NCBI GenBank assembly: GCA_013334765.1
Contig: JAAXWW010000001.1
Location: 172,589-236,588, forward strand
Direction of reading: 5' to 3'
Length of the DNA: 64,000 nucleotides
DNA from: Candidatus Moraniibacteriota bacterium
GTDB taxonomy: Bacteria > Patescibacteriota > Minisyncoccia > Moranbacterales > UBA2206
In this document: in pieces, positions 16,240 through 19,110 of the stretch
Layout: each line of letters starts with the position of its first letter
Position numbering within the stretch: position 1 is the stretch's first letter
Position numbers and translations under genes: made by a program
Notes under the pieces: model-generated
Databases searched by the model: none
The model's input: the letters and a program-made list of their open reading frames with translations, nothing else
Told to the model about the DNA's origin: nothing

Positions 16240-19110
16240 ATGGAAAAATACGAGCCTTCTAAAATCGAGCCGAAATGGCAGAAATGTTGGGAAGAACATC
16301 CGGAGCTTTCGGCTGCCGATGATGCCGTGAATAAGCCGAAATATTATTGTTTGGACATGTTCCCGTATCCTTCTGGCGATGGCTTGCATGTGGGCCATGT
16401 GGAAAGCTATACGGCGACTGATATCGTTTCGCGTTTCAAGCGAATGAACGGAAAAAATGTGCTTCATCCGCAAGGTTGGGACGCGTTCGGCCTGCCTGCT
16501 GAGAACTATGCGATCAAGACCGGAACCCATCCGGATCTGAGGACGCATCAGAATATTGCGAATTTCACAAGACAGATAAAATCCCTTGGCATGTCATATG
16601 ACTGGTCGCGGGAAATCGATACATCAAACCCTGAATATTACAAATGGACGCAATGGCTGTTTCTGCTGTTCTATAAGAACGGATTGGCATACAAGAAAAT
16701 GGGGAAGGTCAATTGGTGCCCTTCCTGCCAAACAGTGCTTGCTAACGAACAGGTTGAAGATGGAATCTGCGAGAGATGCAAGAATGAAGTGATTCAGAAA
16801 GATCTCGAGCAATGGTATTTCAAGATCACGGATTTCATCGAGAACAACAAAGAAACGACAGGCCTCATTGAAGGCTTGGGGAAAGTCGATTGGCCCGGTT
16901 CAACAATAGCGGCGCAAAAGAATTGGATCGGCAAAAGCGAAGGAGTCGAATTCAAATTCAAGGTCAAGAATTCAGATTCCGAAATCAGTGTTTATACTAC
17001 GCGTATAGACACGGTTTTCGGTGTGACATACGTAGTTGTCGGTCCGGAACACAGGATCATCAAAGGGCTCAAAGACAAGATTTCAAACATAGAAGAAGTC
17101 GAGACATATGTGGCAGAAACGAAAAAGAAAACGGATCTTGAAAGAATGGAGGCGAAGGTGAAGACTGGCGTTGAATTGAGAGGAATAAAAGTCATCAACC
17201 CGTTCAGCGGCCAGGAAGTGCCTCTCTTCGTTGCGGATTATGTCTTGAGTCAATATGGAACCGGAGCGGTTATGGCAGTTCCGGCGCATGACGAAAGGGA
17301 TTTCGAGTTTGCGAAGAAATATGATTTGCCGATAAAGAGGGTGATAGAACCTAAATTTATTGCTGGCCCAGGAAGCGATTCTGCGATAATGCCTGGTCAG
17401 GAATATATAAAGCGCAGTGCTATTGCCGCAGTTATTAGAAATCCCAAAGATGACACGTATTTATGTATCAGCTGGAAAACTGCTCATATGCATGGAATAG
17501 TTACTGGCGGTGTTGATGAAGGCGAAGATATCGTCGAAGCTGCGCGGCGTGAAGTGCTTGAAGAGACTGGATACAAAAATTTGAAATTGGTAAAAATTTC
17601 AGACAAAGCAATTCATAGTCTTTTTTATCACCGTGTAAAGAAACAGAATCGCTGGGCACGTTTCCAATATGTAATTTTTGATTTGATTGACGAGCAACAA
17701 GAAGCTATAGATGAAAAAGAAGCGGCTCTGCATGAAATTATTTGGAAGAAAAAAGAAGAGCTTAGGGACTTTTTTAGTGTTATTGAAGGAACTTACATAA
17801 TGAATCTTCTTGATAATATTGATAGTGCTTTTACGGATGATGGTGTTGTGTATAATTCCGGAGAATATGACTGGATGGATTCTTCCGAGGCTCGCAAAAA
17901 GATGGCCCAGTGGCTGGAAAAAGAGGGGATCGGTAAGAAGAAGATAAATTACAAGCTGCGCGATTGGCTGGTTTCGAGGCAAAGATATTGGGGCGCTCCG
18001 ATTCCGATCATATATTGCGACAAGTGCGGAGCGGTTCCGGTTCCGGAGAAGGACTTGCCGGTGATGCTTCCGACAGATGTGGATTTCAAGCCGATTGGAG
18101 AATCTCCATTGGCATATTCGAAAACTTTCCATGATGTGGTTTGCCCGAAATGCGGAGGGAAAGCCAGGAGAGAATCGGACACGATGGATACATTCGTCTG
18201 CTCATCTTGGTATTATTTCAGATATTCCGATCCGAAAAACAGAGAAGAGTTCGCATCAAAAGAGAATATAAAGAAATGGCTGCCGGTTGATCTATACGTC
18301 GGAGGAGCGGAGCATAGCGTGCTCCATCTTCTGTATGCCAGGTTTTTCACGAAAGCATTGCACAATCTCGGATACGTCGGCTTTGATGAGCCGTTCTTGA
18401 AATTGCGCCATCAGGGAATGATTCTGGCGGAAGACGGACGCAAGATGTCGAAGTCGCTCGGGAATGTCATAAATCCGGATGTCGTCGTGAAGGAATTCGG
18501 GGCTGACTCGCTGCGCATATTCGAGATGTTCATGGGTCCATTTGATGCGATGAAACCGTGGAATACGAAAGGAATAGTCGGGATGCAGAGGTTTTTGGAT
18601 AAAGTATGGAGATTTAGCGAAACAGTTTCCGATAGCAATGAGCCGGACGTGAAGATCCAATCATTGCTTCACAAAACAATCAAGAAAGTCACCGCTGACA
18701 TTGAAGATTTCCATTTCAATACTGCTGTATCGCAGCTCATGATCCTGGCTAATGCAATGGAAAAGGAAACGGTAATTTTCAAGGATGAATACGGAAAATT
18801 CCTCATTCTCCTTTCTCCCTTCGCTCCGCATATCGCGGAAGAGCTGTGGTCCAGAATCGGAAATGACAAATCTATTTTCCTGGAGTCCTGGCCGGAATAC
18901 GACGCGGAATTGGCCAAGGATGAAGAGGCTGAAGTCGTGATCCAGGTCAACGGGAAAGTGCGCGATAAGATGACCGTCAGCGCGGATATGGATGAAGAGG
19001 AAATGAAAGCTCTCGCTATCGCAAGTGAAAAAGTACAAGCTCATATATCAGGAAAGGAAATCAGGAAAATCATCGTTGTCAAAGGCAGGCTCGTCAGCAT
19101 AGTGGTCTAG
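16240..19110 (+). CDS. leuS: leucyl-tRNA synthetase carrying an internal Nudix-hydrolase domain insertion
   Basis: '[12 protein letters not shown]' HIGH motif, CP1 editing domain ('[12 protein letters not shown]', '[22 protein letters not shown]'), 'KMSKSLGN' and '[20 protein letters not shown]'. An extra ~160 aa at ~17350-17840 carries a canonical Nudix box '[23 protein letters not shown]'. Confidence 0.95.
   Translation: [956 protein letters not shown]

What the first reader, a model, noticed from the sequence alone, without database searches (positions are those of the whole stretch)
17350..17840. Nudix hydrolase domain inserted inside leucyl-tRNA synthetase, between the CP1 editing domain and the second half of the catalytic core
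LeuS is ~977 aa here. After the editing-domain block '…[23 protein letters not shown]', and before the conserved '…[11 protein letters not shown]…[20 protein letters not shown]', there are ~160 extra residues. They contain a canonical Nudix box, [23 protein letters not shown] (Gx5Ex7REUxEExGU), plus flanking beta-strands consistent with a full Nudix fold. The inserted DNA is conspicuously AT-richer than the rest of leuS, suggesting a relatively recent acquisition. A Nudix pyrophosphatase embedded in an aaRS could hydrolyse a nucleotide by-product or act in editing, though it may instead be a structural passenger. I am not aware of a described LeuS-Nudix fusion.
Basis: partly seen in the sequence, partly recalled or inferred. 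Interest (0 to 1): 0.75.

Follow-up and report, generated by a model that had tools for sequence, protein, structure and literature searches.

The report
Swappable Nudix enzyme nested inside LeuRS
The leucine tRNA-charging enzyme of this tiny Patescibacteria (Moranbacteria) bacterium carries a complete, apparently active Nudix nucleotide-pyrophosphatase domain in a loop of its proofreading domain; this add-on has been gained, swapped and lost many times among such bacteria, and no paper we could find describes it.

Summary

It is not a one-off. 72 of the 120 closest LeuRS carry it, as do 100 of the 149 best 50%-identity clusters. It occurs at two CP1 sites, in up to three copies. The same site can instead hold a nucleotidyltransferase. 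Other loops hold alpha/beta-hydrolase, HAD, ASCH or Ham1 domains. The same Nudix family also sits in ProRS of DPANN-like archaea and exists as stand-alone genes.

The window's copy looks laterally acquired. Its GC3 is 0.29, against 0.54 for the rest of the gene and 0.56 for the window. The gene is mosaic, and its closest backbone relative lacks the insert.

The domain is under purifying selection, and 96% of family members keep the metal-binding glutamates. The likely function is an accessory (di)nucleoside-polyphosphate or NTP pyrophosphatase (Ap4A-hydrolase/RppH-like). The substrate is unproven. No describing paper was found.

The parts
16240..19110 (+). leuS, bacterial-type leucyl-tRNA synthetase with a nested Nudix domain (956 aa plus stop). 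An upstream in-frame TTG at 16177 would give 977 aa.
   Evidence: ORF list. Pfam finds tRNA-synt_1, tRNA-synt_1_2, Anticodon_1 and NUDIX. phmmer to 1h3n gives E 7e-233. Foldseek of the full AF2 model to 2bte gives E 3e-83. 100% identical to NCBI protein P0006.
16387..16398 (+). HIGH signature (HVGH, aa 50-53) of the class I catalytic site
   Evidence: Read from the sequence. H50, G52 and H53 are invariant in a 57-sequence alignment.
16918..17349 (+). CP1 editing domain, N-terminal part (aa 227-370). It includes the Thr-rich TTRIDT (16996-17013) and AHDERD (17284-17301) editing-site motifs.
   Evidence: Pfam PF13603 matches aa 227-372, profile positions 1-143 of 185. T253, T254, D257, T258, H350, D351, R353 and D354 are invariant.
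17350..17811 (+). Nested Nudix hydrolase domain (aa 371-524), the laterally exchangeable cassette
17506..17574 (+). Nudix box [23 protein letters not shown] (aa 423-445), with E429, R437, E438, E441 and E442 all present
   Evidence: Read from the sequence. G423, E438, E442 and G444 are invariant and G424, E441 and Y445 are >=90% conserved in 54 sequences. Core glutamates are kept in 238 of 247 distinct family boxes.
17620..17655 (+). Family-specific motif [12 protein letters not shown], with aromatic residues F462/Y463 at +17/+18 after the box and conserved K467 and N470
   Evidence: An aromatic residue at +17 occurs in 95 of 106 domains. K101 and N104 of the fragment (K467 and N470) are nearly invariant.
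17812..17937 (+). CP1 editing domain, C-terminal part (aa 525-566, '...[14 protein letters not shown]...'), which returns the chain to the catalytic core
   Evidence: Aligned to Tt 371 onward. In site-B relatives this stretch corresponds to Pfam editing profile positions ~143-185.
17332..17874 (+). Low-GC3 tract (aa ~365-545) with sharp edges, coextensive with the cassette plus short flanks. Over about the same span (aa ~361-560) the gene's nearest relatives switch.
   Evidence: GC3 sliding window. Mosaic identity profile. Lowest GC3 in the window.
18442..18456 (+). KMSKS loop (aa 735-739)
   Evidence: Read from the sequence. K735, M736, S737 and K738 are invariant.

Best explanation
This is the organism's ordinary, functional leuS, with intact HIGH, KMSKS, editing-site, zinc-knuckle, anticodon-binding and C-terminal elements. 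A complete ~150-residue Nudix pyrophosphohydrolase has been spliced in frame into a surface loop of its CP1 editing domain. In the model, short strand segments at the two ends of the insert (aa 370-374 and ~535-536) may form a stalk, so the host fold need not be disturbed; their pairing is inferred, not measured.

The domain belongs to a distinct Patescibacteria/DPANN Nudix family that also exists as ~160-aa stand-alone genes. It behaves as an optional, laterally exchangeable cassette. It is present or absent between sister LeuRS at orthologous, syntenic loci. It occurs at two CP1 sites and in one to three copies. The window's copy has a different ancestry and base composition from the gene that hosts it. 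I infer it arrived by homologous recombination through the highly conserved flanks ([13 protein letters not shown] / NSGEY...[12 protein letters not shown]).

Because the catalytic box and family-specific residues are conserved under strong purifying selection, the domain is most likely an active Mg2+-dependent pyrophosphatase. Its nearest sequence and structure relatives are small NpnN/NTP pyrophosphohydrolases: Ap4A and Ap6A hydrolases, RppH and NudI. I therefore infer that it removes a (di)nucleoside polyphosphate or aberrant NTP, for example the Ap4A-type by-products that synthetases make from aminoacyl-adenylate plus ATP. Under this view it is expressed one-to-one with, and next to, a housekeeping synthetase.

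Shown: the anatomy, fold, conservation, distribution, mosaicism and composition. Inferred: catalytic activity, substrate class, recombination mechanism, and any coupling to LeuRS chemistry.
For: Fold and motifs
- Pfam NUDIX 52 bits and a canonical box.
- AF2: domain model pLDDT 93.2, and the domain scores 83-94 within the full-length model (overall 87.7).

Host enzyme intact
- Colinear with solved LeuRS.
- Catalytic and editing residues are invariant.

Selection
- Insert dN 0.125-0.21 with saturated dS, which is lower than the backbone dN of 0.23-0.37.
- 180 of 247 distinct boxes are fully canonical, and 238 of 247 keep E16/E19/E20.

Distribution
- 72 of the 120 best LeuRS hits carry PF00293.
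- 374 representative clusters match at E<=1e-3. Of the best 149, 100 have a LeuRS backbone and ~34 are stand-alone.
- 15 GTDB species loci have the Nudix embedded in LeuRS.
- A second site (B) and multi-copy forms exist.
- ProRS-Nudix occurs in DPANN-like archaea, 37% identical, E 5e-24.

Optional and laterally exchanged
- Nudix+ and Nudix- LeuRS are interleaved in the backbone tree, and the window is sister to Nudix-less P0011 (77.6% backbone identity).
- Synteny (FolD-leuS-NTP_transferase-CofD-Nramp) is identical around Nudix+ P0007 and Nudix- P0030/P0091.
- The best insert matches (P0009 77%, P0076 68%) have poorer backbones (58-66%). The best backbones (70-72%) carry inserts only 30-38% identical.
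- The switch in nearest relatives is confined to aa ~361-560.
- Insert GC3 is 0.292, against 0.542 for the gene and 0.562 for the window.

Substrate class
- Best PDB profile hit is lupin Ap4A hydrolase (E 1e-5).
- Best NCBIfam hits are RppH and NudI.
- Structural neighbours include Ndx1 Ap6A hydrolase, Rv2985 diadenosine polyphosphatase, CT771, RppH and DIPP.
- An aromatic F/Y at +17/+18 after the box is conserved.
- Synthetases make Ap4A and Ap4-capped RNA (PMC9437257).
Against: - No characterised Nudix subfamily threshold is reached (28.9 bits against 116 for RppH). Identity to any solved Nudix is only 13-23%. The top structural match, 2azw, is itself uncharacterised. The substrate is therefore a guess.
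- A subclade of about 15% has E7->Q and R15->A/M/N/T, hinting at altered or lost catalysis there.
- Frequent loss shows the domain is dispensable.
- Other cargo in the same LeuRS loops (nucleotidyltransferase, alpha/beta hydrolase, HAD, ASCH, Ham1) suggests that LeuRS may simply be a tolerant carrier, with no functional coupling.
- GC3 is lower in the insert in 14 of 15 loci, so composition alone does not prove recent transfer. dS to the nearest sampled cassette is saturated, so no close donor is known.
- The trees are neighbour-joining without support values.
Confidence: 0.55

Rival explanations
1. Passenger or non-catalytic module. The Nudix fold is tolerated in a permissive loop and serves at most as a binding or structural appendage, or does nothing. 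LeuRS is merely a safe, constitutively expressed carrier.
For: - The domain is dispensable: sister LeuRS at syntenic loci lack it.
- Several unrelated domains occupy the same or nearby loops.
- A subclade has E7->Q and R15 substitutions, and occasionally E19->Q.
Against: - 96% of distinct family boxes keep all three core glutamates and 73% are fully canonical.
- Insert dN is lower than that of the essential backbone.
- Family-specific residues outside the box (R392, K467, N470, H498, W502) are nearly invariant.
- Stand-alone genes of the same family exist.
Confidence: 0.15
2. Editing or tRNA-end-directed activity. Because it sits on CP1, which binds the tRNA 3' CCA end, the Nudix domain would act on a LeuRS-bound ligand. 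Candidates are hydrolysis of misactivated aminoacyl-adenylate, or removal of a pyrophosphate or cap from a damaged tRNA end.
For: - Both LeuRS insertion sites (A and B) are in the editing domain.
- The family is associated with two different synthetases, LeuRS and ProRS.
- Structural neighbours include the RNA-end pyrophosphohydrolases RppH and AvrM14.
Against: - In ProRS the domain lies between the anticodon-binding and C-terminal domains of an archaeal-type enzyme. From general knowledge this type lacks an editing domain; the Pfam result shows only core, anticodon, Nudix and ProRS-C_1.
- Free-standing homologues exist.
- The editing site itself is fully conserved in Nudix+ and Nudix- enzymes alike, so nothing needs replacing.
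- Aminoacyl-AMP is not a nucleoside diphosphate-X substrate (general Nudix chemistry).
Confidence: 0.12
3. Selfish in-frame cassette. The domain spreads between lineages by recombination through conserved aaRS flanks, much as inteins persist in essential genes, without benefit to the host.
For: - Discordant cassette and backbone histories and the mosaic gene.
- Alien composition.
- Patchy presence and absence.
- Recurrence in conserved essential genes at several sites and in two domains of life.
Against: - No Hint, splicing or endonuclease domain and no other Pfam hit in the insert.
- No target-site duplication or terminal repeats at the junctions.
- Strong purifying selection on catalytic residues, which a pure parasite would not need.
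- No mechanism for homing is evident.
Confidence: 0.1
4. Artefact. A frameshift, chimeric assembly or two adjacent genes have been misread as one.
For: One related contig (L001) shows leuS broken into several called genes.
Against: - The window ORF is continuous.
- The identical protein is in NCBI.
- At least 70 independent assemblies give colinear single ORFs with the insert at the same codon position.
- The L001 breaks are scattered frameshifts along the whole gene, typical of long-read indel errors.
Confidence: 0.01

Closest known systems
Canonical bacterial LeuRS (T. thermophilus 1H3N/2BTE, E. coli 4AQ7, N. gonorrhoeae 6Q89)
   Same: Full-length colinearity, at 35-38% identity in the structural alignment and TM up to 0.86. 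HIGH, KMSKS, the CP1 editing site, zinc knuckles, the anticodon-binding domain and the C-terminal domain are all present.
   Different: A 154-aa Nudix domain replaces the ~7-residue loop after Tt residue 363 inside CP1. No solved LeuRS has an enzymatic domain there.
Small NpnN/NTP Nudix pyrophosphohydrolases: Ap4A/Ap6A hydrolases (1F3Y/1JKN, 3I7U, 1VC8, 4MPO, 9CXX), RppH (4S2W, 7SP3) and NudI (3OGA, 6DT3)
   Same: Single-domain Nudix alpha/beta/alpha fold of ~130-160 aa, a canonical box, and an aromatic residue 17-18 residues after the box. These are the best profile and fold matches among characterised enzymes.
   Different: Only 13-23% identity and far below every NCBIfam equivalog cut-off. 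It has its own conserved motifs (EETGY, HK..NR, H..xW). It is nested inside another enzyme.
E. faecalis MutT/Nudix family protein, PDB 2AZW (function unknown)
   Different: 16-17% identity, free-standing, and no assigned substrate. It does not help with function.
Stand-alone Patescibacterial Nudix proteins of the same family (for example P0004, 164 aa, on an 845-kb contig)
   Same: 40-42% identical over 92% of the insert, including the N-terminal 'P(K/M)FIA...' lead-in strand and the C-terminal helices. Stand-alone forms interleave with embedded forms in the domain tree.
   Different: Independent genes with no synthetase nearby.
Other synthetases with added hydrolytic or accessory domains, such as CP1 itself, the bacterial ProRS INS domain, and YbaK/AlaX-type trans-editing factors (general knowledge)
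   Same: A modular hydrolase is added to a synthetase core through a permissive loop.
   Different: Those modules deacylate mischarged tRNA and are ancient and fixed. This one is a nucleotide pyrophosphatase fold. It is optional, laterally exchanged, sometimes multi-copy, and interchangeable with other cargo.

Membership tests
Nudix hydrolase superfamily (Pfam PF00293) | Profile score above the curated gathering threshold | tested here: met
   52.2 bits in the whole protein and 56.1 bits for the insert alone, against a cut-off of 21.1.
Nudix hydrolase superfamily (Pfam PF00293) | Nudix box GX5EX7REUXEEXGU with the metal-binding glutamates | tested here: met
   aa 423-445, [23 protein letters not shown]. 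Core E16/E19/E20 are kept in 238 of 247 family boxes.
Nudix hydrolase superfamily (Pfam PF00293) | Alpha/beta/alpha sandwich Nudix fold | tested here: met
Nudix hydrolase superfamily (Pfam PF00293) | Divalent-cation-dependent hydrolysis of a nucleoside diphosphate-X substrate | not testable with these tools
   Needs an enzyme assay. Only purifying selection and motif conservation speak for it.
Bacterial-type leucyl-tRNA synthetase | Class I HIGH and KMSKS signatures | tested here: met
   HVGH at aa 50-53 and KMSKS at aa 735-739, invariant in the alignment.
Bacterial-type leucyl-tRNA synthetase | CP1 editing domain with a Thr-rich region and a conserved Asp (AHDxRD) | tested here: met
   PF13603 at 210.8 bits. 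TTRIDT at aa 253-258 and AHDERD at aa 349-354, invariant.
Bacterial-type leucyl-tRNA synthetase | End-to-end colinearity and fold match with solved LeuRS | tested here: met
   phmmer E 7e-233 to 1h3n in three colinear segments. Foldseek E 3e-83 and TM(target) 0.81-0.86.
Bacterial-type leucyl-tRNA synthetase | Leucylation of tRNA-Leu and hydrolytic editing | not testable with these tools
   Inferred from motif integrity and from this being the leuS at the conserved syntenic locus.
RppH / Ap4A (NpnN) hydrolase Nudix subfamily | Score above the NCBIfam equivalog cut-offs for RppH | tested here: not met
   Best is NF001938 at 28.9 bits against a cut-off of 116. The domain is not filed as a member.
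RppH / Ap4A (NpnN) hydrolase Nudix subfamily | Tyr or another aromatic residue 16-18 residues downstream of the box (subfamily marker recalled from Dunn et al. 1999, J Biol Chem; not re-read here) | tested here: inconclusive
   F462/Y463 lie at +17/+18, and an aromatic at +17 occurs in 95 of 106 family domains. The marker is recalled from memory and is not specific on its own.
RppH / Ap4A (NpnN) hydrolase Nudix subfamily | Closest characterised sequence and structure neighbours belong to the subfamily | tested here: inconclusive
MutT 8-oxo-dGTPase | NCBIfam equivalog cut-off | tested here: not met
   18.4 bits against a cut-off of 148.
Intein / homing element | Hint splicing blocks or a homing endonuclease domain, and junction repeats | tested here: not met
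   NUDIX is the only Pfam family above its cut-off in the insert; the one other match, DUF3879, is at 18.2 bits against a cut-off of 27. No significant direct or inverted repeats at 17350 or 17811.

The most novel reading that the evidence does not exclude
One Nudix family has repeatedly colonised surface loops of aminoacyl-tRNA synthetases in ultra-small symbionts, as a laterally exchangeable in-frame cassette. It is found in LeuRS of Patescibacteria (two CP1 sites, up to three copies) and in ProRS of DPANN archaea. Under this reading it works together with the synthetase. For example, it could destroy the Ap4A/Np4N (or Np4-capped RNA) that the synthetase makes, or clear damaged nucleotides or tRNA ends at the point of use. 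That would be a new accessory activity for aaRSs and a new mode of domain-level gene mobility. Patescibacterial LeuRS would then be a general docking platform for nucleotide-sanitising enzymes (Nudix, Ham1 ITPase, HAD, nucleotidyltransferase, ASCH).
Probability: 0.3. Interest if true: 0.85.

Novelty: new variant of a known kind. Interest (0 to 1): 0.7.

Why it matters
Aminoacyl-tRNA synthetases are among the most conserved and best-studied enzymes, and bacterial LeuRS architecture is regarded as fixed.

Here a large fraction of LeuRS from a major bacterial radiation carries an intact second enzyme nested in the editing domain. That enzyme has different ancestry from its host gene. Sister lineages have swapped it for other cargo or lost it.

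If the Nudix domain acts on synthetase by-products such as Ap4A, this would be the first hard-wired coupling of alarmone or by-product clearance to a synthetase. It would also say something about how organisms with minimal genomes and salvaged nucleotide pools keep those pools clean.

Even if there is no coupling, the system is a natural experiment in domain insertion. It maps permissive sites in LeuRS, which is a drug target for benzoxaboroles. It shows domain-scale lateral transfer inside an essential gene.

There are practical consequences too. The insert breaks annotation models: several copies are named only 'class I tRNA ligase family protein'. Mosaic leuS could also mislead phylogenies that use LeuRS as a marker.

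Tried and rejected
- Frameshift or two-gene artefact: rejected. The ORF is continuous and many independent assemblies give colinear orthologues. The fragmented L001 copy has scattered frameshifts along the whole gene, consistent with long-read errors.
- Intein or transposon-like element: rejected. The insert has no Hint or endonuclease hit; NUDIX is the only Pfam family above its cut-off there. Junction repeats are short and at chance level.
- AT-richness explained by amino-acid composition: rejected. Expected GC is 0.454 against 0.383 observed, and the deficit is at third positions.
- The 44-aa filler at site A of the nearest backbone relative P0011 as a decayed Nudix relic: not supported. 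BLASTP is not significant, although that stretch also has low GC3.
- Assignment to a characterised Nudix subfamily through NCBIfam or PDB sequence profiles: nothing reaches a family cut-off.
- A second LeuRS or a stand-alone Nudix paralogue in the window: none found.
- A stand-alone Nudix next to leuS in Nudix-less relatives: none within +/-8 kb.
- Literature searches for LeuRS-Nudix, aaRS plus Nudix plus CPR, and LeuRS domain insertion in Patescibacteria: nothing relevant.
- Fold search of the full-length model: returned only LeuRS chains and said nothing about the insert.
- The afdb50 library was unavailable.
- Model coordinates are not exposed, so the distance and orientation of the Nudix site relative to the editing and synthetic sites could not be measured.

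
Full report
OBSERVATION. One ORF spans 16177..19110 on the + strand. The likely start is the ATG at 16240. This gives a 956-aa protein that is 100% identical over its full length to an NCBI entry named leucine--tRNA ligase from a Candidatus Moranbacteria MAG (P0006). 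Pfam finds the complete LeuRS set: tRNA-synt_1, the LeuRS editing domain PF13603, and Anticodon_1. It also finds a NUDIX domain at aa 392-508 (52.2 bits against a cut-off of 21.1). Against T. thermophilus LeuRS, aa 1-370 align to Tt 1-363 and aa 525-731 to Tt 371-580. A 154-residue segment (aa 371-524, nt 17350-17811) therefore replaces a loop of about 7 residues. The Nudix box [23 protein letters not shown] (aa 423-445, nt 17506-17574) fits GX5EX7REUXEEXGU without exception.

One correction concerns the location. The Pfam editing-domain profile is interrupted at position 143 of 185. The rest of that profile ('GVVYNSGEY...') follows the insert. In relatives with the insert elsewhere, the editing profile runs uninterrupted up to position 185. 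The insert is therefore a nested domain inside CP1, not a linker between CP1 and the catalytic core.

DISTRIBUTION.
- Of the 120 best LeuRS homologues in a 5.8-billion-protein collection, 72 carry PF00293. They are named Moranbacteria, Gribaldobacteria, Parcubacteria, Paceibacterota and Gracilibacteria.
- An exhaustive HMMER scan of 1.84 billion cluster representatives with the insert alone finds 374 clusters at E<=1e-3 and 172 at E<=1e-10. Of the best 149, 100 have a LeuRS backbone and about 34 are stand-alone ~160-aa proteins.
- A scan of GTDB species genomes gave 15 loci with the Nudix embedded in LeuRS. They come from Parcubacteria/Paceibacterota and Saccharibacteria, and this count is a lower bound.
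- In three Saccharibacteria (L009, L010, L012) and in several representatives (P0132, P0137, P0140), the same Nudix family sits at a different place, here called site B. That place is right after the GRSEGAEI strand that opens CP1.
- Some LeuRS carry two or three Nudix copies (P0126, P0127, P0165).
- Site A can instead hold a nucleotidyltransferase (PF10706/PF14907: P0079, P0083, P0095, P0111, P0115).
- Other loops hold an alpha/beta serine hydrolase (L005, P0110), a HAD phosphatase (L001), an ASCH domain (P0025) or a Ham1 ITPase (P0179).
- The same Nudix family (37% identity, E 5e-24, all family motifs shared) is nested in five archaeal-type ProRS. It lies between the anticodon-binding domain and the ProRS-C_1 domain. 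The closest Nudix-less relatives of these ProRS are named Nanoarchaeota and Woesearchaeota.

ORIGIN OF THE WINDOW'S COPY.
- The insert has GC 0.383 and GC3 0.292. The rest of leuS has GC 0.463 and GC3 0.542 (sliding range 0.46-0.59). Amino-acid composition predicts a GC of 0.454, so the deficit is synonymous.
- The low-GC3 tract has sharp edges at about aa 365 and 545.
- It is the lowest GC3 of any 154-codon stretch in the 41 long ORFs of the window (mean 0.567, sd 0.063).
- Independently, the gene is mosaic. Along almost the whole backbone the window is closest to a Moranbacteria group whose members have other Nudix types or none. The nearest is P0011, 77.6% identical and Nudix-less. Between aa ~361 and ~560 the window is instead closest to a different group (P0009 77%, P0076 68%, P0070 67.5%, P0007 67%). 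The backbones of that group are only 58-69% identical.
- In a neighbour-joining backbone tree, insert-bearing and insert-free LeuRS are thoroughly interleaved.
- Nudix+ P0007 and Nudix- P0030/P0091 share the same neighbourhood, FolD-leuS-NTP_transferase-CofD-Nramp. These are therefore orthologous loci differing by the cassette, not paralogues.
- No junction repeats or splicing/endonuclease domains are present. The simplest mechanism, which is inferred, is homologous recombination through the extremely conserved flanking codons.

Caveats on origin. The insert has lower GC3 than its host gene in 14 of 15 loci examined. Part of the signal may therefore be a general feature of these cassettes, such as a shared AT-rich pool or weaker codon selection. 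Synonymous sites are saturated against the nearest sampled cassette, so no close donor is known. The trees carry no support values.

FUNCTION. The domain is under strong purifying selection. dN is 0.125-0.21 with saturated dS, below the backbone's 0.23-0.37. Of 247 distinct family boxes, 180 are fully canonical and 238 keep the three core glutamates. Residues outside the box are nearly invariant: R392, K467, N470, H498, W502 and the EETGY tyrosine. This argues for an active enzyme.

No characterised subfamily threshold is reached. The best NCBIfam hits are RppH at 28.9 bits against a cut-off of 116, then NudI. The recurrent nearest characterised relatives are small (di)nucleoside-polyphosphate or NTP pyrophosphatases:
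- lupin Ap4A hydrolase, the best PDB profile hit;
- Ndx1 Ap6A hydrolase, Rv2985 diadenosine polyphosphatase, CT771, RppH, NudI and DIPP1 by fold.

An aromatic pair at +17/+18 after the box is conserved. It matches a marker I recall for the NpnN-hydrolase subfamily; this is a lead from memory, not a test.

Synthetases are the cellular source of Ap4A and of Ap4 caps on RNA (PMC9437257). The family's independent nesting in a class I and a class II synthetase makes a synthetase-related nucleotide substrate attractive. Against a specific coupling, LeuRS in these organisms also hosts Ham1, HAD, nucleotidyltransferase, ASCH and alpha/beta-hydrolase domains. That pattern fits equally well with LeuRS being a permissive, constitutively expressed carrier for nucleotide-sanitising or salvage enzymes in genomes that depend on scavenged nucleotides. 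An editing-specific role is less likely because the family also occurs at site B, in ProRS, and free-standing. A subclade with E7->Q and R15 substitutions may have altered chemistry.

COMPARISON AND NOVELTY. The protein is a member of bacterial LeuRS and of the Nudix superfamily, and all testable defining features of both are met. It is not a member of any characterised Nudix subfamily. It works like, but cannot be filed as, an Ap4A-hydrolase/RppH-type enzyme.

Six full-text searches found no description of a LeuRS-Nudix or aaRS-Nudix architecture. The proteins sit in public databases as 'leucine--tRNA ligase' or merely 'class I tRNA ligase family protein'.

I rate it a new variant of a known kind. 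It is a familiar enzyme with a previously undescribed, optional, laterally exchanged nested enzyme, and it is part of a broader and apparently unreported habit of Patescibacterial LeuRS (and DPANN ProRS) of hosting foreign catalytic domains.

VERDICT. Interest is 0.7. The anatomy and evolutionary dynamics are solid and would surprise synthetase specialists. The biochemical role is open and directly testable.

Noticed in passing
Related proteins and loci: L005:2327-5707 (aa 245-398), L001:7210-7815, P0110 aa 619-813, P0025 aa 617-726, P0179 aa 984-1167, P0079/P0083/P0095/P0111/P0115 aa ~385-500: Patescibacterial LeuRS hosts several unrelated enzyme domains at four or more loops. These are an alpha/beta serine hydrolase (PF06821), HAD_2, ASCH, a Ham1 ITPase, and a PF10706/PF14907 nucleotidyltransferase at the same site as the Nudix.
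   Followed up: partly
P0234, P0275-P0278 (ProRS, Nudix at aa ~398-521 of P0234): The same Nudix family (37% identity to the window insert, E 5e-24) is nested in archaeal-type prolyl-tRNA synthetases. The nearest Nudix-less relatives of these ProRS are labelled Nanoarchaeota/Woesearchaeota (DPANN).
   Followed up: partly
P0126, P0127, P0132, P0137, P0138, P0165: Some LeuRS carry two or three copies of the Nudix domain, either in tandem or split between the two CP1 sites.
   Followed up: partly
L001:4900-8840: This relative's leuS (Nudix plus HAD) is broken by many scattered frameshifts and was called as about six genes. This looks like long-read indel error rather than a pseudogene.
   Followed up: partly
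L058:105-2645 (P0011), codons ~350-450: The closest backbone relative lacks the Nudix but has a 44-aa filler at the same site, with a local GC3 dip (0.40-0.58 against ~0.75). It shows no significant similarity to Nudix, so a decayed relic is possible but unproven.
   Followed up: partly
L018 (CAYFZV010000041.1): A contig labelled 'uncultured Gammaproteobacteria bacterium' encodes a Patescibacteria-like LeuRS-Nudix, 53% identical to the window protein. Mis-binning or a wrong label is probable.
   Followed up: no
P0010, P0012, P0013, P0015, P0027, P0028, P0039, P0042, P0059, P0077 (Nudix box): A subclade of embedded Nudix domains has E7->Q and R15->A/M/N/T/S, and once E19->Q. This suggests changed or weakened catalysis while the domain is retained.
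   Followed up: partly
window 14916-16057 and 19186-20871: leuS is flanked upstream by a putative beta-class carbonic anhydrase (Pro_CA_2) and a hexapeptide-repeat protein. Downstream are a sugar-nucleotidyl transferase (PF00483) and a DUF2157 membrane protein. The leuS->NTP_transferase pairing is conserved in L056, L057, L059 and L060.
   Followed up: partly
window 61817-61888 (-): This tRNA is the only Rfam match above a family gathering score in the 64-kb window.
   Followed up: no
P0034, P0041, P0068, P0071, P0072, P0079 (database names): NCBI names several insert-bearing LeuRS only 'class I tRNA ligase family protein'. The nested domain presumably breaks the LeuRS naming model.
   Followed up: no
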